This document shows positions 41,643-63,907 of a DNA stretch of 64,000 nucleotides, one piece after another. Source of the DNA: Atopobiaceae bacterium (GTDB lineage Bacteria; Actinomycetota; Coriobacteriia; Coriobacteriales; Atopobiaceae); contig JAKVON010000014.1 of assembly GCA_022482785.1 (NCBI GenBank), forward strand, positions 3,938 through 67,937, written 5' to 3'. The position numbers and the translations under genes are program-made. Below the pieces are notes generated by a model, which saw only the letters and a list, made by a program, of their open reading frames with translations, did not search any database and was not told the DNA's origin. Numbering within the stretch: position 1 is the stretch's first letter; every line of letters starts with the position of its first letter.

Positions 41643-44063
41643 ATGCCGTCGCAACGCAATGATGGGCCATCCCCGTCGCCGGGAGCCCCCTCCCCGGACG
41701 CTCTCCGTGACGCCGAGCAGCGCTATCGCATAGCCACCTCGGGAGCCCACATCTCCGTGTGGGAGTACGACCCGAGGGCGCATCGCATCGACTCCTCCGA
41801 GCATGGCATGGACCTCCTCGGCATGCCCGATGTCATCGAGGACGTCCCCAACTCGGTCCTCTGGCAGTTCTCCGAGGCCGACCGCCCGAAGGCGATCGAG
41901 TTCTTCGCGAGCCTCGATCGCGGCATCCCCTCCATCTCGGCCGAGTTCTGGATCACCGTCCGCGTCGGCGCCGCCCCGCGCTGCCTGCGCTTCACCTACA
42001 CCAACGTGCTCGACGAGGAGGGCAGGCCGCTCAAGGCCTATGGCATCGCCCAGGACGTCACGGCCGAGAGGCGCGCGACCGAGAGCTACGAGCAGGAGCT
42101 CGAGAACCTGCGGCTGCTCAACGACGCCAACCTCATCGCGAAGGGTCGCCACGACCTCACGAGGAACAGGGTCATCGAGTACGTCCGAATGAGCGGGAGG
42201 GCCTTCGAGATCCCCGAGGGCATGACCTACGACGAGGCCTGCGCGGACTTCGCGAGGATGCCCTACCTCAGCTCGGAGCGCGAGGGGCTCGCGAACCTGA
42301 TCGACCGGCACCGTCTCATGCGGGCCTTCGGCGAGGGGGAGACCCACTTCTTCTACCGCTACTGCAGGAACAAGCCGCAGGAGGGGCCCAGCTGGGTCAC
42401 CACGGTGATCACGACCTACATGTCGCCCACCTCGGGCGACATCGAGTGCTTCGTCTACAGCTACGACGTCACCGAGGACGTGCTCAAGGGGCAGCTGGCC
42501 TCGAAGCTGCCCGAGCTGGGGTTCGAGGAGGTGGGCATCATCTATCCGGCCCTCGACCTGGTCACCAGCTACCGCGTTGCCCCGGAGGGGGAGGGTCCCG
42601 GACGGGTCACGACGTCCTACGCGAGCATGGCCGACGAGATCGTCGGGAGGGCCTTCGATGCCGATGCGCGGGAGGACCAGAGAAGGTCCCTGCGGGTCGG
42701 GGCGATTCGCTCGCGCCTTGCGGACGAGGGCCCCTTCTCGAGGGACCTGCAGCTCGCCGCCGCGGACGGCTCGAGACGGGTCAAGCGCCTCCAGTACTCC
42801 TGGGTCGACGGCTCGCACGAGACGATCTTCTACTGCCTCTCCGACGCGACCAGGCAGTTCGAGGCCGAGCAGCGCCAGATCGAGGAGCTGCGCGCGGCGA
42901 AGCTCGCCGCCGAGCGGGCGAACTCGGCCAAGAGCGACTTCCTCTCGCGCATGAGCCACGACATCCGCACGCCCCTGAACGGCATCATCGGCATGACCCG
43001 CATCGCCCGCGAGCAGGAGAGCGCTGCTGCCATGGCCGAGTGCCTCGACAAGATCGACACCTCCTCGAAGCTCCTGCTCGGCCTCGTGAACGACATCCTC
43101 GACCTCTCCAAGGTGGAGGGCGGCAAGATGGAGCTGCATCTCGAGCCCTACCCGAAAGGGGAGTTCCTCGGATACCTCGACTCCGTCATCCGTCCTGCCT
43201 GCGACGAGAAGGGCATCACGTTCGCGGTCGAGGGGGGCGACACGCAGGATGCCTACGTGCCCCTCATGGACAAGCTCCGCACCAACCAGATCCTGTTCAA
43301 CCTCCTCTCGAACGCCCTCAAGTTCACCCCCGAGGGAGGGCATGTCGGCTACGCCGTCGCCGACCGCATCCTCCCGGACGACCGCATGCTCGTCGTCATG
43401 ACGGTGACCGACAACGGCATCGGCATGTCGAAGGAGTTCCAGACCCGCCTGTTCGAGCCGTTCACGCAGGAGAGGCGCGTGAAGTCGCTCGAGGGGGAGG
43501 GCTCGGGGCTGGGTCTCGCGATCGTGAGAAGGCTGGTCGACCTCATGGGAGGGACCATCTCGGTCGAGAGCGAGCCCGGGAGGGGCACGCGCTTCTCGAT
43601 TCGCATCGAGTGCGGCCGCGTCCCCGCGGCCGAGGCCCGCCATGAGGAGCGCCCCTCCGCCATCCCCCATGGCGGCCTGCTCGGGCGGCACGTGCTGCTC
43701 TGCGAGGACCATCCGCTCAACACCGAGATAGCGACCCACCTGCTCGAGCAGGTGCGGATGATCGTGACGTGTGCGGAGGACGGCGAGCGCGGCGTCGAGG
43801 CGTTCGCGGCGTCGCCGGTGGGCTACTATGACGTTATCCTCATGGACATCCACATGCCCGTCATGGACGGCCTCGAGGCGACGCGGGCCATACGGGCCCT
43901 CGACCGTCCCGATGCCCTGGGCATCCCCATCATCGCGATGACGGCCGACGCCTTCGAGGAGGACGTTCGCACGTGCCTTGCGGCGGGCATGAACGGCCAT
44001 GTCGCGAAGCCGGTCGATCCGGAGGCGCTGTATGCGGTCATTGGTCAGGCACTCGATGGGTGA
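41643..44063 (+). CDS. Soluble multi-PAS hybrid sensor histidine kinase (HisKA-HATPase-REC)
   Basis: 806 aa with no obvious TM. H-box [34 protein letters not shown] and [12 protein letters not shown] with LLCEDHPLN ... [12 protein letters not shown] ... MTADAF. Confidence 0.9.
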
Positions 44064-46194: not shown

Positions 46195-46344
46195 GCGGGC
46201 GCCCTCAGCTCTCGTTGGGTTCGAGGAGAAGCCGTACATTCGCCGCATTGTGGAGGCGGGCGGCCATATAAGAGGCTATATAATAATCTTTGAAATAACT
46301 AATGCATCGGCCTGTCGGGCCGTCCGGCCAAGGGTGTCTCACAC

Positions 46345-47481
46345 ATGTATCTTGCCGTCTACGCAGAGACGACCGTCATTTGCATCGCCATGCTCTCCGT
46401 GCTGCTCTACCGCGGTGCCCATAAGGTCGACAAGCAGGCTGCGAACGTCGCCTTCATACAGGTCGTCCAGTCGGTGATCGCGCTCCTCGCGCTCAGCTTC
46501 GCGTGCGTGGCCGCCCGTGGCACCTCGCTCGCGCTCGTCGTCTGCCTCGAGATCGCCTACATGAGCTGGTCCATCGTCGCCTGCGCCCTCTGGCTCCGTT
46601 TCGTCGAGGCCCAGCTCGACCATCCCAGGCGCACGGGGAGGGCCGCGGTGCCGGTGGCCCTCCCGCTCGCCGTCGGCCTCGTCATGGTCTTCGGCTCCAT
46701 CTCGACGGGCTGGGTCTTCTCCGTCGATGACGCCCTGGTCGCCCATCCCGGGTCGCTCCAGGTGGTCTTCAACCTCCTGTGCCTCTTCTATCCCAGCCTC
46801 GCCTCGGAGGAGGTCGTCGTCAGGCTCATGGGCGAGCGCTCCCGCCAGCGCAGGACCGCGTGGCTGGGGCTCCTCTCCGTCTTCGCCCTCCTCCTGGCCG
46901 GGGTCATCCTGCGCTTCGCGTTCCCGGAGCTGCCCTGCATCTGGCCGTCCTTCTCGATCGCGCTGCTCATCGTGTTCTGCAACCGTCAGGAGGCCTCCAT
47001 CTCGACCGACGAGCTCACGGGCCTCAACAACCGCCGGCGCTTCGATGCCGAGCTGCAGCGCCTCTCCTCGGCGCCCGGCCCCCGGGGCCACGTCTTCATG
47101 CTCATGATCGACCTCGACCGGTTCAAGCGGATAAACGACGGCTTCGGCCACCCCGAGGGAGACCAGGCCCTCATCGAGACCGCCGGCATCCTCAAGAGGT
47201 CCGTCGGGAAGACCAACTCCTTCCTCGCGCGCCTCGGCGGCGACGAGTTCGCCGTGCTCTGCCGCTCGCTCGACGAAGACGGGGTCGAGGCCCTCCGCGC
47301 CGACATCGCAGAGGCGTTCTACGAGTGGAACAAGACGAGCGACAAGCCCTATAAGCTGGACGTGAGCATAGGCGTGGGCGAGCTTTCCCGCGATCACTCG
47401 ATGACCGTCGAGGAGCTCGTGCAGGAGGCGGACGCCAACATGTACGGAGCGAAGGAGCGGGCGCACCGCCGGCGCGCCTAG
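46345..47481 (+). CDS. Membrane-anchored GGDEF diguanylate cyclase
   Basis: 378 aa, about 6 TM. LTGLNNRRRF, DLDRFKRINDGFGHPEGD and RLGGDEFAVL. No RxxD I-site at the usual position. Confidence 0.88.
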   Translation: MYLAVYAETTVICIAMLSVLLYRGAHKVDKQAANVAFIQVVQSVIALLALSFACVAARGTSLALVVCLEIAYMSWSIVACALWLRFVEAQLDHPRRTGRAAVPVALPLAVGLVMVFGSISTGWVFSVDDALVAHPGSLQVVFNLLCLFYPSLASEEVVVRLMGERSRQRRTAWLGLLSVFALLLAGVILRFAFPELPCIWPSFSIALLIVFCNRQEASISTDELTGLNNRRRFDAELQRLSSAPGPRGHVFMLMIDLDRFKRINDGFGHPEGDQALIETAGILKRSVGKTNSFLARLGGDEFAVLCRSLDEDGVEALRADIAEAFYEWNKTSDKPYKLDVSIGVGELSRDHSMTVEELVQEADANMYGAKERAHRRRA

Positions 47482-47585
47482 CCGGGCCCCCTCGCGGGCC
47501 CTCATCCGCCGACGACGGACGTATGCGGGCCGTTGCGCCGACCCGCCGCCCTTCCGTACCCCGGCCGGACACAACATGGTCGAGC

Positions 47586-48725
47586 ATGTGGATGGAGGGG
47601 AGGCGCGACGTGTCGGAGGTCATGGCGATAGGACCGGATCTGCTGGGGCTGGCGATCTGCCTGTTCCTGAACTATCTCGTGCGGGCGAATCCCAACATCA
47701 TGCATGTCGACACGAAGCTCTTCCTCCGCCTCGTCGTCATCGTCTCGGTCGTCATCGTCGTCGAGATCGCCTCCGTCGAGGTCGACGCCTACGGCACGGC
47801 GTCGCTCGACGCGCTCGACGAGCTCCTCTACTGCGTCATCTACCTGGCGGCGCCCGTCACCTTCCTGCTCATGGCGATGCTCTTCGACAACGAGGTGCGT
47901 CGCTTCCGCCGCGCGATCGCCGTCTGCCTCGTCGTCTACGCCGCGTTCATCCTCTCGAACTTCCTCACCCACCAGCTGTTCACCGTCACGGGCGGCACCT
48001 CCTACTCCCGCGGCCCCCTCTACGTCGTCTACGTCGTGGCGTCGGCGGCAGCCGGCATCGTCTTCCTCGCCGCCAACAACCGGGCGGTGCGCGACGCCGA
48101 CAACTATCGCAGCTCCCTGCTCTACGGTGCCTTCGCCACGGTGCTGGCCGCGACCGTGATCGAGGCCCTCTTTCCCTCCGTGCTGCTCGTCTGGCCGAGC
48201 ATCGCCCTGGGCCTGCTGCTCTTCTACGTCTACCTGCGCGAGCTCCAGTTCGCGTTCGACCCGCTCACCGGCGTCCGGAACAGGATGGCCTTCTCGCAGG
48301 CCATTCGCGCGGCCGAGGGCGAGAAGGACGTCGGTCTCGTCATGATCGACCTCAACGGCCTCAAGGACGTGAACGACAGCATGGGCCATGCCTCCGGCGA
48401 CAGGTATCTCGTCGCCGCGGCGCAGGTGGTCGGGGATGCGTTCCGCGGCATGGGAAGCGTCTTCCGGATCGGCGGCGACGAGTTCTGCGTCATCTGCCCC
48501 TCGACGACCGAGGAAGGCATCGACGAGAGGCTGCATGCGTTCGTCGGGGCGATGCGGAAGCACGACGCGGAGTGCGACTACCGCTTCTCCATCGCCTACG
48601 GCTCGGCCATGCGCGAACCCGGCGACCTCGACCTGTTCGCGACCCTCTCCCGCGCGGATGCGCTCATGTACCGGGACAAGGAGAGGACGAAACGCTACTT
48701 TCGCGCGAGCGACGGGAGGGGGTAG
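47586..48725 (+). CDS. Membrane-anchored GGDEF diguanylate cyclase (second)
   Basis: Start uncertain (ATG 47523/47586/47592/47622). TM-rich N-terminus. LTGVRNRMAF, DLNGLKDVNDSMGHASGD and RIGGDEFCVI. Confidence 0.82.
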   Translation: MWMEGRRDVSEVMAIGPDLLGLAICLFLNYLVRANPNIMHVDTKLFLRLVVIVSVVIVVEIASVEVDAYGTASLDALDELLYCVIYLAAPVTFLLMAMLFDNEVRRFRRAIAVCLVVYAAFILSNFLTHQLFTVTGGTSYSRGPLYVVYVVASAAAGIVFLAANNRAVRDADNYRSSLLYGAFATVLAATVIEALFPSVLLVWPSIALGLLLFYVYLRELQFAFDPLTGVRNRMAFSQAIRAAEGEKDVGLVMIDLNGLKDVNDSMGHASGDRYLVAAAQVVGDAFRGMGSVFRIGGDEFCVICPSTTEEGIDERLHAFVGAMRKHDAECDYRFSIAYGSAMREPGDLDLFATLSRADALMYRDKERTKRYFRASDGRG

Positions 48726-48833
48726 GGGGCTTGCCGCTACCTGGCGTGCCATTCGCCGCGTTCGGCGGGTTCGAGCTCGTTTTTCGCGCTTAGTGGGGAA
48801 TAGAATACTGGCAGGCTTGTTAAGAGGGGGTAG

Positions 48834-49187
48834 ATGTTGGATAGGGAAATTCTCAAGGGTGCTGGCATCGACTACGAGGACGGCGTCCGCCGCTGTGGCG
48901 ACAACTCCGGCCTCTACGAGCGTCTGCTCTCCCTGTTCCTCGCCGACGACAACTTCGAGGGGGCGAAGAAGGGCCTTGCCGACAAGGACTACGACGAGCT
49001 CTTCTCCCGCACCCACGAGATCAAGGGCATGAGCGGCAACATGTCGATCACGGACGTATACCGCACCTCGTCGAACGTCGTCGCCCTCCTCCGCGCGAAG
49101 GACTACGACGCGATCCCCGCCGCCTTTGCCGAGCTTGAGGACGCCTACGGCAAGGCCACCGATGCGATCGAGTCCGCCCAGGGCTAG
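48834..49187 (+). CDS. Stand-alone Hpt (histidine phosphotransfer) protein
   Basis: 117-aa helical protein. Phospho-His context FSRTHEIKGMSGNM. RBS AGAGGGGG upstream. Confidence 0.8.
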   Translation: MLDREILKGAGIDYEDGVRRCGDNSGLYERLLSLFLADDNFEGAKKGLADKDYDELFSRTHEIKGMSGNMSITDVYRTSSNVVALLRAKDYDAIPAAFAELEDAYGKATDAIESAQG

Positions 49188-49189
49188 CC

Positions 49190-51379: not shown

Positions 51380-51395
51380 GCCCTCGCCGCACCCC

Positions 51396-51570
51396 GGGCA
51401 GAAAAAGCGGGGAATGCGGTCGTCCGGGGTTCCCTCCTGGCAGAAAAAGTCGAGTGTGTGGTCGTGTTTTTGGGCCGTTGCCCGTCTCGGGCGGGTCCCA
51501 GGGACCGCATTCTCTACTTTTTCTGCCCCCGAGCAGCTTCCGATGACCGCACACCCCATCTTTCCTGCCA
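51396..51570. repeat. 175-bp composite element of four 26-nt units, copy B
   Basis: Units at 51396-51421, 51438-51463, 51503-51528 and 51545-51570. The offsets 0/42/107/149 are identical to copy A. Confidence 0.85.
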
Positions 51571-51684
51571 TCGCCCGTCGGCCGAGACAATCGCCCGCGG
51601 CAATCCCTCTTGTGATTGCTCTCTGCCATCACATGCGATACTGAGGGACATGGTGCCTGGTCTCGGATCGAGGGGGTGGTCGTC

Positions 51685-54600: not shown

Positions 54601-55587
54601 ATGCTCGACCTCGTCAACGACGTGCTCGACATGTCCAAGATAGAGAGCGGGAAGATGGAGCTCAGGCCCGAGCCCTTCGGGTTCCGCGGCCTCATCAAGG
54701 GCATCGTCGACCCCCTGCGCATCTCCGCCAAGGCGGGCGACGTGGGCCTCGAGTACAGCGTCGACCCCCACTACCCGCGCTTCGTCCGCGCCGACCGCCT
54801 GCGCCTCCAGCAGGTCATCCTGAACCTCGTCTCCAACGCCGTGAAGTACACCCCGGCCGGCGGGAAGGTGGAGCTCGAGGTGAGCCGCCTGAGCCCGGAG
54901 CAGGACGGCTGCAACACCTGCATCAGGGTCTCGGACAACGGCATCGGCATGTCGAGGGAGTTCCAGGAGCACATGTTCGAGCCGTTCACCCAGGAGCACC
55001 AGAGCAGCATGTACTCCGTGCTAGGGACGGGGCTCGGCCTCACCATCGTGCGGCAGATCGTGAGCCTCATGAGCGGCCGCATCGAGGTCGAGAGCACCAT
55101 CGGCAAGGGCTCGACCTTCAGGGTCTACCTGCCTGTCGAGCAGGTCGAGACCGGGGCCGAGCCCCAGCTTTCCCAGGGTCCCGTGGCGAGCATCGAGGGA
55201 CGCCACCTCATGCTCTGCGAGGACAACGACCTCAACGCGGAGATAGCCACGACCATCCTCCGCGAGCGTGCCCATGCCTCGGTCGAGCGCTTCGGCAACG
55301 GGCGGCTCGGCCTCGACGCCTTCGCCTCCTCGGCCCCCGGCACCTACGACGCGATTCTCATGGACCTCAGGATGCCCGTCATGGACGGCATCGAGACGAC
55401 CAAGGCCATCCGCGCCCTCGACCGCCCCGACGCCAGGTCCATCCCCATCGTGGCCATGACGGCCGACGCCTTCGTCGAGGACGTCAGGAGATGCCGGGAG
55501 GCGGGGATGAACGCGCACGTCTCCAAGCCCGTCGACCCCCTGCGTCTCGTCTCGGTCCTCGCCGAGCAGCTTGCGGGAGGCGCATGA
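51685..55587 (+). CDS. Large soluble multi-PAS hybrid sensor histidine kinase
   Basis: ATG 51685 follows GAGGGGG (the ORF opens at 51616). About 1300 aa with several PAS-like repeats. H-box [28 protein letters not shown] and GTGLGLTIV. REC MLCEDNDLN...ILMDLRMPVMDG...MTADAF. Confidence 0.9.
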   Translation: MEVSDETIDVLAASFPGDFAIVRLEADSVVTLRRSEGLHGLFGMDRREYADLVRDDPLSVVFERDRPLASEALASLGAGEGEASLSLRLVHKAKLAMWSRARVRVVGTQGGSPVAACSLLDSSDGINEHSQLLGNAGIGIYVIDVGTHELLYVNDHLLEAWGRSDYPGRLCHEFVNGFPHPCAWCSVPLMEDGSFHADEAYDPRNDKWFTIDCRDVDWYGHAAVAVYSIDVTARKLREEHLEIDVDGLQSIIENIPFGIAVREMRDGRTVTSVVNPMFCGLLDITRGQYLADSGDILEKVLEEDRAKLTAHMRTLLGPSDERECVFRYAVGAARTVRWYSLRTRTIAQQGSTLILSCLIDLTAEREAQLQALQNQRMYEAAVEEARLSVWEYDMSGRHIALTGRGDAFPGALEAEPSQLIENVPDSLLSFVAEHDRAAFADMFRQVAEGAPRAACEVWYKARDDSEPRCERMSCTTVFDADGRPVKAYGISQDVTVQRIEEENYARLYGDIGQLDTQIIGSYRLNLTKNGFEHVAGELAPSDPSSADRSADAFFSLLASDIEDGAIRERFSGTISRERLLEAFREGRQRLSMEFPIVLSDGGVHWIENVYSMAQNPLTGDVEAVSYARDISLRVKDEAVVRQIAEQGYDFVGMVDAKSGLFEMLQLRPGAPHAFPLNEKTAYAAFLEWLGRNALGDDAEAMGTAIRLSAVRDSLGRSPVLNVPYRAVGDDGSELRKQLQFSWMGNLRREVLIAQTDVTSSYRLEQEQIRRLDAARRAQEHTSALMQSILDTTPASIFWKDADRRFEGANRAFLDFYGFPSLDAILGRNDEDMGWHPDAEPYRNDELAVIRDGVSTHRVPGICVVRGRERNIVASKSPRYERGSIVGLVGSFEDVTDEYERNAEIARLNDDLKRSLGEVEKANAAEQAFMSNLSHDIRTPLGGVLGFTELAMDTNDITLKQSYLEKIDASGKLMLDLVNDVLDMSKIESGKMELRPEPFGFRGLIKGIVDPLRISAKAGDVGLEYSVDPHYPRFVRADRLRLQQVILNLVSNAVKYTPAGGKVELEVSRLSPEQDGCNTCIRVSDNGIGMSREFQEHMFEPFTQEHQSSMYSVLGTGLGLTIVRQIVSLMSGRIEVESTIGKGSTFRVYLPVEQVETGAEPQLSQGPVASIEGRHLMLCEDNDLNAEIATTILRERAHASVERFGNGRLGLDAFASSAPGTYDAILMDLRMPVMDGIETTKAIRALDRPDARSIPIVAMTADAFVEDVRRCREAGMNAHVSKPVDPLRLVSVLAEQLAGGA

Positions 55588-56771
55588 TGGCGTCGCGCGG
55601 GGGTGCCATGCGCGAGGGGACCGGCCTCCTGGTCGCGGCCACGTTCGGCGCGATCTTCCTGAACGGCTTCGAGGCGGGCGGCTATCAGGCCTGCCTCCAG
55701 AGCATCGGCGCGGAGTACTCCCTCTCGGGCTCGCTGATGGGTGCCCTCGCCTCGGTGCAGCTCGTGGCGTGCCTCGTCGCCCCGCTCGTGTTCGGGCCCC
55801 TGGCCGACCGGCGCGGCAAGCGCCCCGTGCTCCTGGCGTTCCTCGCCGTCGAGGTGGCATCGAGCGTGCTCGCGACGGCCTCCCATGACCCCGCCGCCTT
55901 CGCCGTCGCCATCTTCGGCGTGGGCGTCGCCGTGAGCACCGTCCAATACGTCGTCCTGGCGGGGATAGCCGACGCGTTCCCTGCCACGGGAAGGCGCAAG
56001 CTCGGGTTCGTGACCGGCATGTACTCGCTCGGCGCCGTCATCTCGCCGCTCCTCTGCGGCGGCCTCATCTCCGCGGGCATGTCCTGGAGGGCCTTCTTCG
56101 TCGTCCTGGCCGCGGCCTCGGCACTCGCCTGCGGCGCGTTCGTCGCCTGCGACTTCGCCCCCAGGGAGGCTCCCTCGGCCGGCGGCGGGGCAGGCGCCGC
56201 GACGTCGGGGGAGGGTGCCTGGGACGGGCTCGGCGTGGGACTCCTCTGCCTCGTGATGTTCGTCTACGTGGGCGTCGAGAGCGGCATCGGCTACTTCATG
56301 AACTCGTTCGTGTCCACCGAGCTCTCGGGCTCCAGCTCCTACCTCGCGCTCTCGCTCTTCTGGGCCGCCATGATCCCGTCGCGCATGCTGTGCGGCGCCA
56401 AGGCCGCCCGCCGCGGGCCCCTCCTCGTGGCGGCCTGCGTCGGCGCGGGGGTCCTCACGGCGGCGATGTCGCTGCTCTCCTCGTCCGTGGCTGCCGTGGC
56501 CCTGGCCGCCGCGATGGGCTTCTTCTGCGGGGCGGTCTATCCCTGCGTGCTCGCCTACGACGTCGACTTCGCCGGCGGCCGCACGGCCACGGCCACGGGC
56601 CTCATCACCGCGGCGACGGGCCTGGGAGGGGCGATCGTGACCCTCGCGTTCGGCTGGATGTCTGACGCGCTCGGCATGAGGATGGCCTTCGCCCTGCTGG
56701 GAGGGCTTATGCTCGTCGACGTGGCGGCGGCGGTCGCCCTGCTCGCGAGGGGGAGGAGGCAGCATGCGTAG
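55584..56771 (+). CDS. MFS transporter
   Basis: ATG 55584 overlaps the kinase stop (ATGA), with GGGAGG upstream. 395 aa, about 12 TM. MFS loop GPLADRRGKRP. Confidence 0.85.
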   Translation: MMASRGGAMREGTGLLVAATFGAIFLNGFEAGGYQACLQSIGAEYSLSGSLMGALASVQLVACLVAPLVFGPLADRRGKRPVLLAFLAVEVASSVLATASHDPAAFAVAIFGVGVAVSTVQYVVLAGIADAFPATGRRKLGFVTGMYSLGAVISPLLCGGLISAGMSWRAFFVVLAAASALACGAFVACDFAPREAPSAGGGAGAATSGEGAWDGLGVGLLCLVMFVYVGVESGIGYFMNSFVSTELSGSSSYLALSLFWAAMIPSRMLCGAKAARRGPLLVAACVGAGVLTAAMSLLSSSVAAVALAAAMGFFCGAVYPCVLAYDVDFAGGRTATATGLITAATGLGGAIVTLAFGWMSDALGMRMAFALLGGLMLVDVAAAVALLARGRRQHA

Positions 56772-59583
56772 ACGCTCCCTATTGGCACACGGCGCGTTCG
56801 CGCTGCTCCTTGCCCTTGTCCTCGCCGTGTTCGCGCCTGGCCTCGCGACGCCGGCCCTTGCGGCGGAGCCCTCGGCCGCGCAGACGACGGTCCGTGTCGG
56901 CTACTTCAACAACGGCGACTTCATGCACAAGGCCGCCGACGGCAGCTACGAGGGCTATGACGTCGAGTACTACTACACGCTCGCCAGCTATGCCAACTGG
57001 AAGATACAGTTCGTCGACTACGACAGCCTGAACGCCGCGCTCGCCGGGCTCAAGGCAGGGGACATCGACATGATGAGCGGCCTCTCCAAGACCACCGAGC
57101 GGGAGAGCAGCTATCTCGCCTCTGCCCAGAAGATGTGCACCACCCACATCGCGGTGCAGACCCGCGCCGACGATGACCGCTACTCCCCGGGTGACGTCTC
57201 GGGCATGGCGGACATGACGTGCGGCATCCTCAAGGGGTCGAACGTCGTGGCCCTCTACGAGGCGTGGTGTGCGGAAGGGGGCCTCACGCCCCATGTCGTG
57301 GAATACGACACCCTCCAGGCCAGGAACGACGCGTTCGCCTCGGGCCAGGTCGATGCCATCGCGGCCGGATCCACCATCGAAGGCGCCCAGAAGGTCGCGG
57401 AGTTCCCCGGGCTCGACCTGTTCTTCATGCTCAACCAGTCGCAGACAGACCTCAAGGCCCAGGTCGACCGCTCGATGTCCGTCCTCTCGCTCACCGAGCC
57501 GGCCTATGAGACCAACCTCACCCTCAAGTACTTCCCGGCGTCCAAGAACTCGACGCCCTCCTTCTCGGCCAGGGAGAAGGCCTTCGTCGCGTCGCATCAG
57601 ACGATAAGGGTCGCGGTGCTTTCCGATGACGCGCCCTTCAGCGTGGTCGACTCCTCCGGCAACGCCACGGGGATACTGCCCGAGTACTTCGACCACCTCG
57701 GCCAGGAGATCGGCGTCACGTTCGTGTGCGTGGGATGCGCCGACAAGGACGCCGCCTGTGCGGCGCTCGCGGCAGGCGAGGTCGACGCCATCGGCAAGTA
57801 CCAGAACGACGCCTACGACGCCAACGCGCGCGCAACGATCCTGGGCGACGTCTACCTGCCGATGAGCCTCGTGCAGATCACCCGCGCGGGCACGGGCTCC
57901 GTCTCCACCGTGACCGTTCCCGAGTGCAACGCCGAGATGGTCGAGGCCCTGGCTGCGGGCGCGGGCTTCCAGGCCCCGATCACCTCGTGCAGCAACGCCG
58001 AGAAGTGCTTCGGGCGCCTCAAGGCGGGAGAGGTGGATGCTGTCATCTGCCCCCAGGTGAGCGCCTCGTGGCTCCTCACCCGCAACCGCTCGTCCGACTA
58101 CGTGGTGTCGGCGTTCGGTACGAAGAGCTGGGATGCCTGCATGGCCTTCGCTCCAGGTACGGATGGCAATCTGCTCAGGTCGATCGTGAACAAGACGATC
58201 GCCGTCGACGGCAGCTACATCGACCAGCTGATCACGAAGGACACCCTCCAGGACTCCGCCGACCTCACGGGGCTGCTCGAGCGCGTCCCCACGCCGGTCC
58301 TCGTGGCGCTCGCCACGATCCTGTTCCTCGTCGCCGCACTCGCGGTGGTCTCGGCCATCGTCCTCGCACGCCGTCGCAAGCACGAGCGTAGCCTCGCGCA
58401 GCAGCAGGCCGAGGCCGACCGCCGCGAGTCGGAGCTCCGGATCGAGGCCCGCACCAACGAGGCCCAGCAACGCTTCTTCGGCACGGTGAGCCATGACATG
58501 CGCACCCCCCTGAACGGCATCATGGGCTTCGCCGACCTCGCCCTGGAGAGCGACGACCCGGCGCGTACGCGCGATTACCTCACGAAGATCCGCACGTCGG
58601 GCCGCATCCTCACCGAACTCGTCGACGACACGCTCGTGATGTCGCGCCTCTCGAGCGGCAAGCTCGTGCTCCATCCCATCCCGTGCGACAACCACGAGGT
58701 GTTCGATGACGTCTGCCTGCCGATACGCGCGACGGCAGAGGCCAAGGGCGTCGCGTTCGAAGACGATGTCGCGGACCTCCCGCGCCGAACGGTCATGGTC
58801 GATCGGCCGGCCCTCCAGAAGGTCCTGCTCAACCTGCTCTCCAATGCGATCAAGTTCACGCCTGCCGGCGGCACGGTCACGCTCGGGGTCTCCCTCATGC
58901 CAGCGGGGTCCGAGAGCCCCGACACCGTCTTCACGGTCGCCGACACCGGCGAGGGTATCTCCGAGGAGTTCCTCCCGCACGCCTTCGATGCCTTCAGCCA
59001 GGAGAACCCCATGGTGGCAGGATCGACCACCGGCACGGGCCTGGGACTTTCCATCGCCAAGGGCGTCGTGGAGGCGATGGGCGGCACCATCTCGGTGACC
59101 AGCGAGAAGGGTGTGGGCTCCACCTTCACCGTCCGCCTGCATCTCGATCGGGCCGAGCAGCCGCAGACAGCTGCCCCGTCCGGTGCCAACACCCTCACGG
59201 GCAAGACCATCCTCGTCTGCGAGGACAACGCGCTCAACGCGGAGATAATCAGGACCATCCTCGAGAAGGCCGGCGCCGAGGTCGTGGTCGCCGGGAATGG
59301 CAAGCTGGGCGTCGAGGCCTTCCGCGCGAGCGCTCCCGGCGGCATCGACGCCGTGCTGCTCGACCTCCGCATGCCCGTCATGGACGGCTTCGCGGCCGCC
59401 CGCGCCATCCGTTCGCTCGACCGCGCGGACGCGGCCGTCGTCCCCATCTTCGCGGTCTCTGCCGATGCCTATCCGGAGGACGTCCAGAGATGCCGGGAGG
59501 CGGGCATGAACGGGCACCTCGCCAAGCCCGTGAGTGCGGCGGATGTCTTATCCGCGCTCGGTGGGGAAGGGGTACGGCCATGA
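56764..59583 (+). CDS. Hybrid sensor histidine kinase with two extracytoplasmic SBP_bac_3 (Venus-flytrap) domains
   Basis: Signal/TM MRRRSLLAHGAFALLLALVLAVFA. Two periplasmic-binding-protein-like modules (VRVGYFNNGDF..., IRVAVLSDDAPF...). TM LVALATILFLVAALAVVSAIVLA. SHDMRTPLNGIMGF, NLLSNAIKFTPAGG. REC LVCEDNALN...LLDLRMPVMDG. Confidence 0.9.
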   Translation: MRRRSLLAHGAFALLLALVLAVFAPGLATPALAAEPSAAQTTVRVGYFNNGDFMHKAADGSYEGYDVEYYYTLASYANWKIQFVDYDSLNAALAGLKAGDIDMMSGLSKTTERESSYLASAQKMCTTHIAVQTRADDDRYSPGDVSGMADMTCGILKGSNVVALYEAWCAEGGLTPHVVEYDTLQARNDAFASGQVDAIAAGSTIEGAQKVAEFPGLDLFFMLNQSQTDLKAQVDRSMSVLSLTEPAYETNLTLKYFPASKNSTPSFSAREKAFVASHQTIRVAVLSDDAPFSVVDSSGNATGILPEYFDHLGQEIGVTFVCVGCADKDAACAALAAGEVDAIGKYQNDAYDANARATILGDVYLPMSLVQITRAGTGSVSTVTVPECNAEMVEALAAGAGFQAPITSCSNAEKCFGRLKAGEVDAVICPQVSASWLLTRNRSSDYVVSAFGTKSWDACMAFAPGTDGNLLRSIVNKTIAVDGSYIDQLITKDTLQDSADLTGLLERVPTPVLVALATILFLVAALAVVSAIVLARRRKHERSLAQQQAEADRRESELRIEARTNEAQQRFFGTVSHDMRTPLNGIMGFADLALESDDPARTRDYLTKIRTSGRILTELVDDTLVMSRLSSGKLVLHPIPCDNHEVFDDVCLPIRATAEAKGVAFEDDVADLPRRTVMVDRPALQKVLLNLLSNAIKFTPAGGTVTLGVSLMPAGSESPDTVFTVADTGEGISEEFLPHAFDAFSQENPMVAGSTTGTGLGLSIAKGVVEAMGGTISVTSEKGVGSTFTVRLHLDRAEQPQTAAPSGANTLTGKTILVCEDNALNAEIIRTILEKAGAEVVVAGNGKLGVEAFRASAPGGIDAVLLDLRMPVMDGFAAARAIRSLDRADAAVVPIFAVSADAYPEDVQRCREAGMNGHLAKPVSAADVLSALGGEGVRP

Positions 59584-62414
59584 GGGCGCAAGGGGGGGCA
59601 CGCCGTCTTCTGCGTGCGCTGGCGCTGCGGGTCGTCATCGCGGCATCCGTAATCGTGGTCGGAGCCTCGCCCTGCGTCGCCTGGGCGGACGAGTCGCAGC
59701 CGACCACGGGCTCCAACGTGGTGCGCGTGGGCATCTCCGAGTACCCGCAATACGCCTACTACGACGCCAACGGCAACCCCACGGGCGCGGACGTGGAGTA
59801 CGCCTATCGCATCGCCCAGTACGAGGGCCTCGACGTGCAGGTGGTGCTCATTCCCGACGCCTCGAGCTATTTCTCCGCGCTCGACTCCGGCCAGGTCGAC
59901 ATGCTCTTCGACGTCATCAAGACCGACGAGCGCGAGCAGCGCTACCTCTTCGCCGAGTACCAGACAGGGAGCACCCCCAACTCCATCTACGTTCGCAAGG
60001 GCGACACGCGGTTCGAGTACGGCGACATCAACGCCCTCGGGGACAAGGTCTTCGGGTCCGAGCGCGACAGCTACGTCACCACGATCTTCAGGAACTGGTG
60101 CGCGAGCGTGGGCATCGCGCCCCAGATCCGGGAGTATGCCAGCAGCGACGAGGTGAACGCGGCGCTCGACGCGGGTGAGGTCGATGCCGGCGTCTACGGA
60201 GACTCGGAGATGGTGGGCTACACGACCGTCGAGAGGTTCTCTCCCACGCCCTACTACAACATCTTCCGGCGGGACGAGACCGCCCTCAAGGCGAAGGTCG
60301 ACGAGGCCATGAGCCAGATCCTCTCGGCCGACCCCCTCTACGGCTCGCGTCTCGTCGAGAAGTATGCGGGGTCGACGAACTCGACGATGTCGACGCTTTC
60401 CATCGAGGAGTCCGACTACGTCGCCTCGCATCCCACCGTGACCGTGGCCGCCATCGAGAACGACGCCCCCTACTACTGGGTCTCCTCCGACGGCAGGGCG
60501 CGAGGCGTCCTCGTCGACTACTGCGCCAAGCTCGGCCAGCTCACCGGCCTGGACTTCAGCATCGTCAGCTTCCCGTCGCAGGCAGACGCGGAGGCGGCCG
60601 TGAAGGACGGGCAGTGCGACATGGTCGGCATCTACAGCAACGGCCTCGTGAAGGCCTACTCGTCCGGCTTCGCCCTCACGAGCACCTATGCCACCGAGGA
60701 CGTCGTGGAGCTCACCCGTTCGGGCGTGAGCTCGTCCGACGTCAAGCGGATAGCCGTGAAGGAGCGCAGCAGGAAGGGATTCGAGGACACGCTCGGAATC
60801 GAGGGGGTCGAGTACGTGGGCTACGAGAGCGCGAGCGCATGCTTCGCAGCCCTCGAGTCCGGCCAGGTGGATGCCGTGATCGCCGGCCAGCCCAGCATCA
60901 CCTACCTCATCAACCAGGCGGACTCGGCCGCCTACAGCATCGATCCCGTCCCGCTGCTCACCATGGAGATGTGCGGCGCCGTCGCCGCCGACAACGGCGT
61001 GCTCTGCTCTATTCTCGACAAGGCCGTCGCCGTGTCGTCGTCGGACTTCGACGCCTACGTGAGCACGAGCACGATGACGGAGAACAACCTCCGCTCGTTC
61101 GTGGCGCACATGCCGCCAGGGCTCATCGTGGGGGTGGGGCTGATCCTCGCGGCCCTCGTCGTAGGGCTCATCGTGGCCCTCGTCGTCATCGTCCGCCACC
61201 AGCGCGAGACGGCCGAGCTCGTGCGGGCGAAGGCCGCCAACGACCGCCGCGAGGCGCAGCTTGCCGCGGCCGAGCGGGCAAACGACGAGCGCAACCGCTT
61301 CTTCTCCAACATCAGCCACGACATGCGCACGCCCCTGAACGCCATCATCGGCTTCTCGTCGCTCGCCCAGAAGAAGGCGCGCTCTCCCGAGGTCAAGGAC
61401 TACCTGGCCAAGATCGGGACCTCGGGCAACGTCCTGCTCGACCTCATCGACGACACCCTCATGGTCTCGAAGATGAGCAGCGGGAAGGTGCAGATCAACC
61501 CCCAGCCCATCGCGCTTGCCGAGCTCGTCGAGTCCATCACGATTCCCATCCAGGAGTTCGCCCTGCAGCACGGCGTCGAGTTCGCCGAGGACGTCTCGGC
61601 GAGGCCGCGCACCGTGCTGTGCGACCGCCTCAACACCGAGAAGATCATGCTCAACCTGCTCACCAACGCCGTGAAGTACACCCCGCGCGGCGGCCACGTG
61701 AGGTTCTCCATCGCCGACGCCCCCGGCGACGCCTCCGATCCGGAACTGGTCTTCACGGTGGCCGATGACGGCGTGGGCATGGCGGACTCGTTCCTGCCCC
61801 ACATCTACGAGCCGTTCATCCAGGAGAACAAGCTCGGCACCACCTCGGGCACGGGCCTGGGCCTCTCCATCGTCAAGCAGCTCGTCGACCTCATGGGCGG
61901 CACCATCGAGGTGCGGAGCAAGCCGGGCGAGGGCACCACGTTCGTCGTGCAGCTTCACCTGGCCGCGACCGACGAGGTGCCGAACGCCCACCCCGAGGCC
62001 GCCTGCCAGGCGTCGGGCGTCGAGCTCTCCGGGCGAAAGGTGCTGCTCTGCGAGGACAACGCCATGAACGCCGAGATAGCGCGCGCCCTTCTCGAGGAGG
62101 AGGGCATTGAGGTGGTCGTCGCCACGAACGGGCGCGTGGGCGTGCGCTACTTCGAGGCGAGCGAGGTGGGGGAGTACTCCGCCGTGCTCATGGACCTGCG
62201 CATGCCCGTGATGGACGGTCTCGAGGCCGCGCGACAGATTCGCGCGCTCGACAGGAAGGACGCAGCGAGCGTCCCCATCGTCGCGATGACCGCGGACGCC
62301 TTCCCCGACGACGTCGAGCGCTGCCTCGATGCCGGCATGAACGCCCATGTCGCCAAGCCCATCGACCCGAATGCGCTCATGACGACGCTCCGCGAGCAGA
62401 TGGTGCGGAGATAG
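59580..62414 (+). CDS. Second hybrid sensor histidine kinase with two SBP_bac_3 domains (paralog of the preceding gene)
   Basis: ATG 59580 overlaps the previous stop (ATGA). Same architecture: VRVGISEYPQYAY..., TVTVAAIENDAPYY..., TM, SHDMRTPLNAIIGF, NLLTNAVKYTPRGG, REC LLCEDNAMN...LMDLRMPVMDG. Confidence 0.9.
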   Translation: MRAQGGARRLLRALALRVVIAASVIVVGASPCVAWADESQPTTGSNVVRVGISEYPQYAYYDANGNPTGADVEYAYRIAQYEGLDVQVVLIPDASSYFSALDSGQVDMLFDVIKTDEREQRYLFAEYQTGSTPNSIYVRKGDTRFEYGDINALGDKVFGSERDSYVTTIFRNWCASVGIAPQIREYASSDEVNAALDAGEVDAGVYGDSEMVGYTTVERFSPTPYYNIFRRDETALKAKVDEAMSQILSADPLYGSRLVEKYAGSTNSTMSTLSIEESDYVASHPTVTVAAIENDAPYYWVSSDGRARGVLVDYCAKLGQLTGLDFSIVSFPSQADAEAAVKDGQCDMVGIYSNGLVKAYSSGFALTSTYATEDVVELTRSGVSSSDVKRIAVKERSRKGFEDTLGIEGVEYVGYESASACFAALESGQVDAVIAGQPSITYLINQADSAAYSIDPVPLLTMEMCGAVAADNGVLCSILDKAVAVSSSDFDAYVSTSTMTENNLRSFVAHMPPGLIVGVGLILAALVVGLIVALVVIVRHQRETAELVRAKAANDRREAQLAAAERANDERNRFFSNISHDMRTPLNAIIGFSSLAQKKARSPEVKDYLAKIGTSGNVLLDLIDDTLMVSKMSSGKVQINPQPIALAELVESITIPIQEFALQHGVEFAEDVSARPRTVLCDRLNTEKIMLNLLTNAVKYTPRGGHVRFSIADAPGDASDPELVFTVADDGVGMADSFLPHIYEPFIQENKLGTTSGTGLGLSIVKQLVDLMGGTIEVRSKPGEGTTFVVQLHLAATDEVPNAHPEAACQASGVELSGRKVLLCEDNAMNAEIARALLEEEGIEVVVATNGRVGVRYFEASEVGEYSAVLMDLRMPVMDGLEAARQIRALDRKDAASVPIVAMTADAFPDDVERCLDAGMNAHVAKPIDPNALMTTLREQMVRR

Positions 62415-63714: not shown

Positions 63715-63907
63715 GGCCCAAGCATGCACGAAGGCTCTAACAGATTTTTGTACGCAATTTACAAATAGTGACACTCTAGCGTAAATACGCTGCTCAACGG
63801 TGCTAATTGCGATGTGCTGGTGGGAATATCTCGACCGAATTCACATAAAATAAGCATACACATCACCATCGGCGCTGCCCAACGTATAGATTATTGCCGC
63901 GAGTGGT

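What the first reader, a model, noticed from the sequence alone, without database searches (positions are those of the whole stretch)
41643..62414. Twenty-one-kb block: four Hpt-less hybrid kinases, one free Hpt, and four c-di-GMP turnover proteins
All genes in this block are on the plus strand. They comprise four HisKA-HATPase-REC hybrid kinases, none with its own Hpt domain. Two are soluble multi-PAS kinases and two are extracytoplasmic double-SBP kinases. The block also holds one 117-aa Hpt, a REC-GGDEF(degenerate)-EAL regulator, an HD-GYP protein, two membrane GGDEF cyclases and an MFS transporter. Four junctions overlap start and stop codons (44056/44063, 55584/55587, 56764/56771, 59580/59583). 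By the established logic of multistep phosphorelays, hybrid kinases lacking Hpt need a separate Hpt. I infer a many-inputs-to-one-Hpt relay that controls c-di-GMP hydrolysis. I cannot tell whether this wiring has been described for this lineage.
Basis: partly seen in the sequence, partly recalled or inferred. Interest (0 to 1): 0.7.

Follow-up and report, generated by a model that had tools for sequence, protein, structure and literature searches.

The report
Atopobiaceae c-di-GMP phosphorelay gene cluster
The described genes are all present, in an uncultured gut/fermenter actinobacterium (family Atopobiaceae). They most likely form an ordinary multistep phosphorelay that switches a c-di-GMP-degrading enzyme, of which only the Hpt-plus-regulator gene pair is conserved in relatives.

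Summary
Window 41643-62414 carries ten plus-strand genes:
- four HisKA-HATPase-REC hybrid kinases that lack Hpt;
- one 117-aa Hpt;
- one REC-GGDEF(degenerate)-EAL-PAS regulator, here called RGE;
- one HD-GYP protein, two membrane GGDEF cyclases and one MFS permease.

All four start/stop overlaps are real.

Hpt is immediately followed by RGE in seven Coriobacteriia lineages (Hpt identity 51-100%) whose flanking genes differ. This supports Hpt as RGE's dedicated partner. RGE has a full EAL catalytic set and a family-wide dead GGDEF motif (GSDNF), so hydrolysis is the likely output.

The "four kinases feed one Hpt" part rests on logic and local evidence only. The full block recurs only in a sister strain. 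One relative at 73% Hpt identity keeps kinase-GGDEF-Hpt-RGE-kinase. More distant relatives keep no adjacent kinase. The block is a mosaic of modules. HK2-MFS is itself a conserved, translationally coupled pair found elsewhere without Hpt-RGE.

The HD-GYP and GGDEF enzymes have no receiver and lie outside the relay.

One caveat: RGE's receiver has Asn at the second metal-binding acidic position.

This is a new member of a known kind (compare HptB, LuxU, Silicibacter HK-Hpt-DGC, VieSA). Interest is modest.

The parts
41643..44063 (+). HK1: soluble hybrid histidine kinase (N-terminal ~420 aa with one weak PAS_4 hit; HisKA-HATPase_c-REC; no Hpt). An alternative start lies at 41757.
   Evidence: Pfam. 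No hydrophobic segments. Shine-Dalgarno GGAGGGAGC lies before ATG 41643. Best NCBIfam match is LuxQ, E 1e-90, below cut-off.
44056..46194 (+). Membrane-bound HD-GYP phosphodiesterase without a receiver. It has an N-terminal ~6-TM domain resembling an ECF-transporter S component, then a Cache-like extracytoplasmic domain between two TM helices, a HAMP-like linker and an HD-GYP domain (HD, HHE..DG.GYP intact).
   Evidence: Pfam HD_5/HD. NCBIfam NF045596, E 1.1e-15, covering profile positions 1-171 of 174. Weak sCache_3_2 and HAMP hits. TM scan and motifs read from the sequence. The AlphaFold2 model is confident only for aa ~250-400, which form an alpha/beta fold.
46345..47481 (+). GGDEF-A: diguanylate cyclase with ~6-7 TM helices, intact GGDEF motif and no RxxD I-site.
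   Evidence: Pfam GGDEF 122 bits. Motif and TM scan.
47523..48725 (+). GGDEF-B: diguanylate cyclase with ~7 TM helices, intact GGDEF motif and no RxxD I-site. The start codon is uncertain; public gene calls give 371-380 aa.
   Evidence: Pfam. Motif and TM scan. Gene calls. Ortholog at 48% identity sits upstream of Hpt in L037/L038.
48760..48786 (+). Terminator-like hairpin with a T-run between GGDEF-B and Hpt. It suggests that Hpt-RGE is its own transcription unit.
   Evidence: a consensus match only; 3 sites were found against 5.4 expected by chance. Sequence.
48834..49187 (+). Stand-alone Hpt phosphotransfer protein (117 aa). The phospho-accepting residue is His61, in the motif THEIKGMSGN.
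   Evidence: Pfam. His61 and the motif are invariant in 18 homologues. AlphaFold2 pLDDT 96. Best fold matches are Hpt domains. Shine-Dalgarno GAGGGGG lies upstream.
49190..51379 (+). RGE: response regulator with REC, a degenerate GGDEF domain (GSDNF), a catalytically complete EAL domain and a C-terminal PAS-like domain. It is the predicted terminal acceptor and a c-di-GMP phosphodiesterase. REC residues are D54/T85/F(switch)/K107, with acidic pair D10-N11.
   Evidence: Pfam. Alignment to MorA 4rnh. Family alignment. REC alignment.
51685..55587 (+). HK2: soluble multi-PAS hybrid histidine kinase (1300 aa), translationally coupled to the MFS gene.
   Evidence: Pfam. No TM segments. The HK2-MFS pair is conserved in L050 (47% and 56% identity) and as MFS-then-hybrid kinase in the Eubacteriaceae locus L052.
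55584..56771 (+). MFS permease (some sources name homologues FHS/fucose-glucose-mannose permease-like). Its coding sequence overlaps both HK2 and HK3.
   Evidence: Pfam MFS_1. Homologue names. ATGATG overlap with the HK2 stop codon.
56764..59583 (+). HK3: hybrid kinase with an extracytoplasmic sensor, in the order signal/TM1, 2x SBP_bac_3 (Venus-flytrap), TM2, HisKA-HATPase_c-REC. No Hpt.
   Evidence: Pfam. TM scan. PDB match to BvgS VFT 4q0c, E 6e-11, for aa 263-479.
59580..62414 (+). HK4: second double-SBP_bac_3 hybrid kinase. No Hpt.
   Evidence: Pfam. TM scan. ATGA overlap with HK3.

Best explanation
The block is a lineage-specific cluster of c-di-GMP signalling genes in an uncultured Atopobiaceae (Coriobacteriia) bacterium. 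It is assembled from modules that are each conserved separately.

**The core.** The core is a two-gene unit, Hpt followed by RGE. Hpt~P (on His61) donates phosphoryl to Asp54 of the RGE receiver. This changes the activity of the RGE EAL domain, so the output is c-di-GMP hydrolysis. The dead GGDEF domain and the C-terminal PAS domain are regulatory.

**The inputs.** Phosphoryl groups reach Hpt from Hpt-less hybrid kinases by the route His -> Asp (kinase REC) -> His (Hpt). The four kinases encoded alongside are the most likely donors. HK1 and HK2 sense cytoplasmic cues. HK2 probably works with the co-translated MFS permease. HK3 and HK4 sense extracellular small molecules through Venus-flytrap domains.

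**Outside the relay.** The HD-GYP phosphodiesterase and the two GGDEF cyclases are not relay members. Each has its own membrane sensor and acts on the same c-di-GMP pool in parallel.

**What is shown and what is inferred.** Shown: domain content, motifs, gene overlaps and conservation of the Hpt-RGE pair. Inferred: every phosphotransfer step, the sign of regulation and which kinases actually feed Hpt.
For: **Architecture**
- Domain architecture and absence of Hpt in all four kinases.
- The kinase cores are of LuxQ/TorS/BarA/ArcB type.
- The Hpt fold and invariant His are confirmed.

**Hpt-RGE pairing**
- Hpt and RGE are 2 nt apart.
- They are adjacent in seven Coriobacteriia lineages at 51-100% Hpt identity. 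Flanking genes differ: UvrD/HTH in L035, NlpC-P60/CmpB in L014, Flg_new/DegV in L011.

**RGE as output enzyme**
- The EAL catalytic set is intact against MorA, and GGDEF is degenerate in all eight RGE sequences aligned.
- The RGE receiver keeps D54, T85 and K107. It has the aromatic switch residue (F) typical of terminal receivers. The four kinase RECs have His at that position (criterion from PMC9981736).

**Kinase-to-Hpt link**
- The four kinase REC domains are 52-62% identical to each other. This is more than their DHp domains (41-53%) or CA domains (43-53%). It is consistent with a shared partner.
- The window holds exactly one Hpt, and RGE is its only non-kinase REC.
- Partial synteny (hybrid kinase, GGDEF-B, Hpt, RGE, HK2) is kept at 73% Hpt identity. 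The whole block is kept in a sister strain.

**Precedent**
- Phosphotransfer from a hybrid kinase through a free Hpt to a c-di-GMP enzyme has been shown in vitro in Silicibacter (PMC4436077).
Against: - No phosphotransfer data exist.
- The kinases are not co-conserved with Hpt-RGE beyond close relatives.
- HK2-MFS occurs without Hpt-RGE in L050.
- In Firmicutes, homologous Hpt proteins are orphans next to housekeeping genes. This Hpt type can therefore serve kinases encoded anywhere, and the rest of this genome could not be examined for other Hpt genes or receivers.
- RGE's receiver has Asn11 where CheY has Asp13 and Spo0F has Asp11. The Asn is conserved in all six Coriobacteriia orthologues. 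That position binds magnesium and is conserved in both receiver classes (PMC9981736), so phosphorylation chemistry may be altered.
- A 305-nt gap separates RGE from HK2, and gaps of 108-150 nt flank the GGDEF genes. The block is therefore several transcription units.
Confidence: 0.6

Rival explanations
1. Co-location without convergence. The block is a patchwork of independent signalling modules (HK1/HD-GYP; GGDEF-A; GGDEF-B; Hpt/RGE; HK2/MFS; HK3/HK4) that accumulated in one variable region. Only some, or none, of the four local kinases feed this Hpt. The others use a different Hpt or receiver elsewhere, or act mainly as phosphatases or phosphate sinks.
For: - Conservation is graded and module-wise. 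Hpt-RGE occurs alone in L011, L018, L020 and L035.
- HK2-MFS occurs alone in L050, and MFS-then-hybrid kinase occurs in the Eubacteriaceae locus L052.
- HD-GYP homologues occur alone.
- Divergence from the sister strain is mosaic, 84-99% amino-acid identity from gene to gene.
- Intergenic gaps split the block into about five transcription units.
- Firmicutes Hpt homologues are orphans.
Against: - All four kinases lack Hpt, and the only Hpt in 64 kb sits among them.
- Their REC domains are more alike than their catalytic cores.
- A relative at 73% Hpt identity still brackets Hpt-RGE with two hybrid kinases.
Confidence: 0.27
2. RGE's receiver is atypical. With Asn at the second acidic metal-binding position, RGE may not be a conventional phospho-acceptor. 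Hpt could regulate RGE by binding. Alternatively, RGE could act as a slow or altered-metal acceptor, or as a sink that drains phosphoryl groups from Hpt so that a different regulator encoded elsewhere is the real output.
For: - The D10-N11 (or E-N) pair is conserved in all six Coriobacteriia RGE orthologues. The Oscillospiraceae homologue and all four kinase RECs have the canonical DD or ED pair.
- The acidic pair is described as conserved for magnesium binding in both receiver classes (PMC9981736).
Against: - The phospho-acceptor Asp, the Thr, the Lys and the aromatic switch residue are all conserved. This would not be expected in a pseudo-receiver.
- An Asn side-chain oxygen can still ligate a metal (inference).
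- Tight Hpt-RGE coupling is what a normal donor-acceptor pair looks like.
Confidence: 0.1
3. RGE is a c-di-GMP sensor or trigger protein rather than a hydrolase, as in the LapD and FimX class.
For: The GGDEF domain is degenerate and a PAS-like domain is attached. Weak NCBIfam similarity to LapD.
Against: All EAL catalytic residues are present and align to the active enzyme MorA: EAL, N, E, DDFG, KID, EGVE, QG. They are conserved across the family. The best NCBIfam similarities are to phosphodiesterases (DibA, GepA, PvrR).
Confidence: 0.03

Closest known systems
Pseudomonas aeruginosa HptB network: hybrid sensors PA1611, PA1976, PA2824 (and PA4856) -> HptB -> PA3346/HsbR. It is linked to c-di-GMP through HsbD (PMC7467158, PMC5085249).
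   Same: Several Hpt-less hybrid kinases converge on one free Hpt, which passes phosphoryl to one receiver protein. The predicted Hpt model superposes on HptB 7c1i (TM 0.70).
   Different: The output there is a REC-PP2C phosphatase in a partner-switch, not an EAL enzyme. The kinases are scattered orphans in a proteobacterium. Here the genes are clustered in an actinobacterium, and convergence is unproven.
Vibrio LuxN/LuxQ/CqsS -> LuxU -> LuxO quorum-sensing relay (own knowledge; the LuxQ NCBIfam model is HK1's best hit).
   Same: This is the textbook many-kinases-to-one-Hpt funnel. The kinase cores are of the same subfamily (HK1 against LuxQ, E 1e-90, below the equivalog cut-off).
   Different: The output there is a sigma-54 activator. 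The sensor domains are unrelated. None of the window proteins reaches any equivalog cut-off.
Silicibacter sp. TrichCH4B: H-NOX / hybrid HK -> stand-alone Hpt -> REC-GGDEF cyclase (PMC4436077).
   Same: A hybrid kinase lacking Hpt, a separate Hpt, and a receiver-controlled c-di-GMP enzyme as terminal acceptor. Transfer was shown in vitro.
   Different: That system has one kinase, and its output is a cyclase inhibited by phosphorylation. Here the output is an EAL phosphodiesterase and up to four kinases are involved.
Vibrio cholerae VieS-VieA (PMC4352251). Related systems from own knowledge: BvgS/EvgS Venus-flytrap kinases, Borrelia Hk1-Rrp1, P. aeruginosa RocS1-RocR.
   Same: VieS has two periplasmic solute-binding domains, a kinase and a REC, like HK3 and HK4. 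It relays phosphoryl to a receiver-EAL phosphodiesterase. HK3 aa 263-479 match the BvgS VFT domain (4q0c, E 6e-11).
   Different: VieS and BvgS carry their own fused Hpt, which HK3 and HK4 do not. VieA is REC-EAL-HTH. RGE is REC-GGDEF*-EAL-PAS.
Pseudomonas putida CfcA (hybrid kinase) / CfcR (REC-GGDEF-EAL response regulator) (PMC6849547, abstract seen).
   Same: A GGDEF/EAL response regulator whose activity depends on a multisensor hybrid kinase.
   Different: CfcR acts as a cyclase. RGE's GGDEF motif is dead (GSDNF) and its EAL domain is intact, so the opposite enzymatic output is predicted.
Xanthomonas RpfC -> RpfG (REC-HD-GYP) (own knowledge; the RpfC REC 3m6m appears among PDB hits).
   Same: A hybrid kinase gene lies next to an HD-GYP phosphodiesterase gene, as HK1 overlaps HD-GYP here.
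   Different: RpfG is controlled through its own receiver, and RpfC has a fused Hpt. The HD-GYP protein here has no REC and has membrane sensor domains instead, so it cannot be a phosphorelay target.

Membership tests
Multistep His-Asp-His-Asp phosphorelay with a free Hpt (LuxU/HptB type) | Hybrid kinase(s) with an H-box His, an ATPase domain and a C-terminal receiver carrying the acceptor Asp | tested here: met
   HisKA, HATPase_c and Response_reg are all above Pfam cut-offs in four proteins. H-box SHD(I/M)RTPL, and REC residues E-D/D/T(S)/K, are present.
Multistep His-Asp-His-Asp phosphorelay with a free Hpt (LuxU/HptB type) | The kinases lack their own Hpt domain | tested here: met
   There is no PF01627 hit in any kinase. 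Each protein ends within about 10 residues of its REC domain. A family-specific Hpt HMM hits only 48834-49184.
Multistep His-Asp-His-Asp phosphorelay with a free Hpt (LuxU/HptB type) | A stand-alone Hpt: helical bundle with a solvent-exposed conserved His in an H-x-x-K-G context | tested here: met
   PF01627 at 25.9 bits, just above the 24.6 cut-off. H61-E-I-K-G is invariant. AlphaFold2 pLDDT 96. Top PDB fold hits are all Hpt domains, TM 0.70-0.82.
Multistep His-Asp-His-Asp phosphorelay with a free Hpt (LuxU/HptB type) | A terminal response regulator with a complete receiver active site (acidic pair, Asp, Thr/Ser, aromatic switch, Lys) | tested here: inconclusive
   D54, T85, the F switch residue and K107 are conserved. 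The acidic pair is D10-N11, with the Asn conserved in all six Coriobacteriia orthologues.
Multistep His-Asp-His-Asp phosphorelay with a free Hpt (LuxU/HptB type) | Demonstrated phosphotransfer from kinase REC to Hpt to regulator REC | not testable with these tools
   This needs in vitro phosphotransfer profiling.
Catalytically active EAL c-di-GMP phosphodiesterase | Conserved catalytic and metal-binding residues (E of EAL, N, E, DD, K, E of EGVE, Q) | tested here: met
   Residue-by-residue alignment to MorA 4rnh gives EALVRW, SVNLS, EVTES, DDFGNGYSS, KID, EGVE and QG. These are conserved in orthologues.
Active GGDEF diguanylate cyclase | GG(D/E)EF active-site motif | tested here: not met
   This row concerns RGE. 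Its motif is GSDNF, aligned to GGDEF of MorA. The motif is degenerate in all orthologues: GNDDF, DSDNF, ESDNF, TADHY. In contrast, GGDEF-A and GGDEF-B have an intact GGDEF motif and so meet the feature.
HD-GYP c-di-GMP phosphodiesterase | HD and HHExxDGxGYP motifs within an HD_5-type domain | tested here: met
   HD_5 at 93.9 bits. HDIGK, HAAKG and [12 protein letters not shown] were read from the sequence. These motifs are invariant among 5 family members.
RpfG-type response-regulator HD-GYP | An N-terminal receiver domain controlling the HD-GYP domain | tested here: not met
   There is no Response_reg hit. The N-terminus is instead polytopic membrane plus Cache-like plus HAMP-like.
BvgS/EvgS/VieS-type Venus-flytrap sensor kinases | Tandem periplasmic solute-binding (SBP_bac_3/VFT) domains between two TM segments, followed by a hybrid kinase | tested here: met
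   HK3 and HK4 each have two SBP_bac_3 stretches, TM segments at about 6-28 and about 516-537, and a BvgS VFT match.
BvgS/EvgS/VieS-type Venus-flytrap sensor kinases | A C-terminal fused Hpt domain (unorthodox kinase) | tested here: not met
   HK3 and HK4 end at the REC domain. The EvgS NCBIfam score is 153-154 against a cut-off of 1995.

The most novel reading that the evidence does not exclude
In Coriobacteriia, Hpt-RGE is a lineage-wide, dedicated c-di-GMP off-switch. Its receiver has evolved a non-canonical metal site (Asp-Asn), which would give unusual phosphotransfer chemistry or kinetics. In this organism the switch integrates nutrient status through transporter-coupled hybrid kinases: the conserved HK2-MFS pair and the Venus-flytrap kinases. 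An ECF S-component-like domain fused to the HD-GYP protein adds a further input. Together these would form a previously undescribed nutrient-to-c-di-GMP network in non-motile Gram-positive anaerobes.
Probability: 0.12. Interest if true: 0.55.

Novelty: new member of a known kind. Interest (0 to 1): 0.3.

Why it matters
c-di-GMP signalling and His-Asp-His-Asp phosphorelays have been studied almost entirely in Proteobacteria. My two full-text searches pairing c-di-GMP with Coriobacteriia or with five of its family and genus names listed no paper that treats it in these taxa.

The conserved Hpt-RGE pair gives a concrete, small and testable entry point into how these abundant gut and fermenter actinobacteria set their c-di-GMP level. 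The clustered kinases offer candidate inputs.

The logic itself (Hpt-less hybrid kinases, a free Hpt, a receiver-controlled c-di-GMP enzyme) is established elsewhere. The finding therefore extends known biology to a new lineage and does not reveal a new mechanism.

Tried and rejected
**Searches and predictions that led nowhere**
- Rfam scan of the whole window: no RNA families.
- Promoter/terminator scan: counts were at or below chance. Only one plausible hairpin was found, after GGDEF-B. It is not decisive for operon structure.
- Metagenome scan with the Hpt alignment: only 6 loci, of which 2 were informative. Both again showed Hpt followed by RGE. No large synteny statistic was possible.
- AlphaFold2 model of the full HD-GYP protein from a 5-sequence alignment: mean pLDDT 62. 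Only the extracytoplasmic alpha/beta domain was confident. The S-component-like fold of the N-terminus could not be confirmed, so no fold search was run on this model.
- Literature search for the effect of Asn at the CheY-D13 position (term "D13N"): no hits.

**Readings considered and rejected**
- An RpfC/RpfG-like HK1 -> HD-GYP pair: rejected because the HD-GYP protein has no receiver.
- RGE as a bifunctional cyclase/phosphodiesterase: rejected because the GGDEF motif is GSDNF.
- A recent horizontally acquired island: not supported by composition. GC is 0.65-0.69 and GC3 about 0.9, like the rest of the window. The block does end next to a DUF559/REase-like gene, and relatives lack it.

**Could not be done**
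- Whole-genome census of Hpt and REC genes in this organism. Only the window and 20-kb loci were accessible, and the single genome-contig scan did not return this species.
Full report
**1. What is there**

The window has 63-72% G+C. The frames with GC3 of 0.83-0.95 define ten consecutive plus-strand genes between 41643 and 62414.

Pfam assigns them as follows:

| Gene | Coordinates | Domains |
|---|---|---|
| HK1 | 41643-44063 | one weak PAS_4, HisKA, HATPase_c, REC |
| HD-GYP | 44056-46194 | HD_5/HD at the C-terminus |
| GGDEF-A | 46345-47481 | GGDEF |
| GGDEF-B | ~47523-48725 | GGDEF |
| Hpt | 48834-49187 | Hpt |
| RGE | 49190-51379 | REC, GGDEF, EAL, PAS_3 |
| HK2 | 51685-55587 | several PAS, HisKA, HATPase_c, REC |
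| MFS | 55584-56771 | MFS_1 |
| HK3 | 56764-59583 | 2x SBP_bac_3, HisKA, HATPase_c, REC |
| HK4 | 59580-62414 | 2x SBP_bac_3, HisKA, HATPase_c, REC |

Every kinase ends within about ten residues of its receiver, so none contains an Hpt domain.

Hpt and RGE are 2 nt apart. Larger gaps lie between the other units: 150, 41, 108 and 305 nt.

A local hmmsearch of all six-frame ORFs finds exactly one Hpt and five receiver domains in the 64-kb window.

**2. Identity of the individual parts**

*Hpt.* The Pfam score is marginal (25.9 bits against a cut-off of 24.6). However:
- the THEIKGMSGN motif is invariant in 18 homologues;
- the AlphaFold2 model is very confident (pLDDT 96);
- its best PDB matches are Hpt domains from a Shewanella hybrid kinase, BarA, HptB and plant AHPs, at TM 0.7-0.8.

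*RGE.* Aligned to the active enzyme MorA, RGE keeps every EAL catalytic residue, but reads GSDNF where MorA has GGDEF. Both properties hold in the orthologues.

The RGE receiver keeps the acceptor Asp54, Thr85, Lys107 and an aromatic switch residue. Its acidic pair is Asp10-Asn11, and the Asn is conserved in all six Coriobacteriia orthologues. That position is a magnesium ligand, described as conserved in both intermediary and terminal receivers (PMC9981736). This remains an unexplained caveat.

*Kinase receivers.* All four have the canonical Glu-Asp pair and a His at the switch position. That fits the variability reported for intermediary receivers.

*Kinase cores.* Their best matches are the LuxQ, TorS, BarA and ArcB models, all far below the equivalog cut-offs.

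*HK3 and HK4.* The order is signal/TM1, two Venus-flytrap domains, TM2, then the kinase. HK3 also gives a BvgS VFT match.

*HD-GYP protein.* It has intact HD and HHE..GYP motifs and no receiver. Its N-terminus is a polytopic membrane domain that matches an ECF S-component model over the model's full length (E 1e-15). A Cache-like extracytoplasmic domain and a HAMP-like linker follow.

*GGDEF-A and GGDEF-B.* Both have 6-7 TM helices, an intact GGDEF motif and no I-site.

**3. Organism**

- The exact Hpt sequence occurs on 19 public metagenome or MAG contigs. The 10 contigs shown have the same gene order.
- Relatives are annotated as Atopobiaceae or Coriobacteriaceae MAGs.
- The neighbouring genes fit a saccharolytic Gram-positive anaerobe: GH1, alpha-amylase, PEP carboxylase, malic enzyme and a CBS-DRTGG pyrophosphatase.
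- The species itself was not among the GTDB representative genomes that were scanned.

**4. Synteny test**

Hpt immediately followed by RGE is found in seven lineages, graded by Hpt identity:

| Hpt identity | Loci |
|---|---|
| 99-100% | window and sister strain L049 |
| 73-74% | L037, L038, L041 |
| 68-69% | L035, L036, L042 |
| 62% | L014-L017 |
| 61% | L020 |
| 54% | L018 |
| 51% | L011-L013, L021 |

The flanking genes are unrelated between lineages: UvrD/HTH, NlpC-P60/CmpB, Flg_new/DegV.

In an Oscillospiraceae MAG, a longer RGE-like protein is the divergent neighbour of Hpt. In Lachnospiraceae and Clostridia MAGs, the Hpt sits alone next to housekeeping genes.

The kinases behave differently:
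- the whole block recurs only in the sister strain;
- at 73% Hpt identity the order is hybrid kinase, GGDEF-B, Hpt, RGE, HK2 homologue;
- at 69% or below no kinase is adjacent, except one hybrid kinase with an unrelated (ABC_sub_bind) sensor 3 kb away in L014.

Separately, HK2-MFS is a conserved and translationally coupled pair:
- it recurs at 47% and 56% identity without Hpt-RGE upstream (L050);
- in a Eubacteriaceae MAG the MFS orthologue overlaps a PAS hybrid kinase in the reverse order (L052).

HD-GYP homologues with the same unusual architecture stand alone.

The block is therefore a mosaic of modules with different depths of conservation.

**5. Mechanism**

*Best explanation (confidence about 0.6).* Hpt is the dedicated phosphodonor of RGE, and phosphorylation of RGE Asp54 tunes its EAL phosphodiesterase. 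The Hpt-less hybrid kinases encoded around it are the most likely upstream donors.

Support for the kinase-to-Hpt step is indirect:
- the kinases need an external Hpt;
- this is the only Hpt in 64 kb;
- there is partial synteny at 73% Hpt identity;
- the kinase receiver domains are more similar to one another (52-62%) than their DHp or CA domains (41-53%).

All phosphotransfer steps and the sign of regulation are inferred. HD-GYP, GGDEF-A and GGDEF-B act in parallel on the same second messenger through their own sensors.

*Rivals.*
- Only some or none of the local kinases use this Hpt (about 0.27).
- The Asn-containing receiver behaves non-canonically (about 0.1).
- RGE is a sensor rather than an enzyme (about 0.03; contradicted by its intact catalytic set).

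**6. Comparison with known systems**

The wiring is of a well-known type:
- several orphan hybrid kinases feeding HptB in P. aeruginosa (PMC7467158);
- the LuxN/LuxQ/CqsS-LuxU funnel (own knowledge);
- a hybrid kinase, free Hpt and receiver-cyclase relay shown in vitro in Silicibacter (PMC4436077);
- VieS, with two periplasmic binding domains, relaying to the receiver-EAL protein VieA (PMC4352251);
- CfcA/CfcR in P. putida (PMC6849547).

None of the window proteins reaches an equivalog cut-off for any named family.

What is new is the lineage. My two full-text searches pairing c-di-GMP with Coriobacteriia or with five of its family and genus names listed no paper that treats it in these taxa. 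Also new is the tight, conserved Hpt-RGE operon.

**7. Verdict**

- Novelty: a new member of a known kind.
- Interest: 0.3.

The more unusual details are side observations that may merit separate follow-up:
- the Asn in the RGE receiver's metal site;
- the conserved pairing of a soluble hybrid kinase with an MFS permease;
- the S-component-like domain on the HD-GYP enzyme.

Noticed in passing
window 49190-49550 (RGE receiver, aa 1-120): The acidic metal-binding pair is Asp10-Asn11 instead of the usual Asp/Glu-Asp. The Asn is conserved in all six Coriobacteriia orthologues. The Oscillospiraceae homologue and all four kinase receivers have the canonical pair.
   Followed up: partly
window 51685-56771; L050 6099-11215; L052 2828-6029: A soluble PAS hybrid kinase and an FHS-like MFS permease form a conserved pair with overlapping coding sequences. 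It is seen in Atopobiaceae (kinase then MFS) and in a Eubacteriaceae MAG (MFS then kinase), independently of Hpt-RGE. This suggests transporter-coupled sensing.
   Followed up: partly
window 44056-45345 (HD-GYP protein, aa 1-430): The N-terminal ~170 aa match the NCBIfam 'CD3073 family putative ECF transporter S component' model over its full length (E 1.1e-15, below cut-off). A Cache-like domain follows. Only four other protein clusters with this ~710-aa architecture were found. The structure model was too weak to confirm the fold.
   Followed up: partly
L049 versus window 44056-62414: Amino-acid divergence from the sister strain is mosaic: HD-GYP, both GGDEF proteins and Hpt 98-99%, RGE 91%, HK2 86%, MFS 85%, HK3 84%, HK4 94%. 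This suggests recombination, or faster evolution of the sensor kinases.
   Followed up: no
window 52190-52245 (HK2, aa ~169-186): A Cys/His cluster, CHEFVNGFPHPCAWC (C-H-x9-C-x2-C), lies inside a PAS-like region of HK2. It is a possible metal or cofactor site.
   Followed up: no
window 62710-63774 (minus strand): A DUF559/MTES_1575 restriction-endonuclease-like gene directly follows the block. It is also present after HK4 in the sister strain L049.
   Followed up: no
window 20490-21698 (minus strand): An ABC transporter ATPase is fused to an N-terminal GAF domain, next to an FtsX-type permease at 17233-19620. This is an uncommon domain fusion.
   Followed up: no
L014 12626-15259 and L047 3097-4151: ABC_trans_CmpB (PF06541) membrane proteins lie next to RGE in one relative and next to an HD-GYP homologue in another. 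This may be a recurring association, or coincidence.
   Followed up: no
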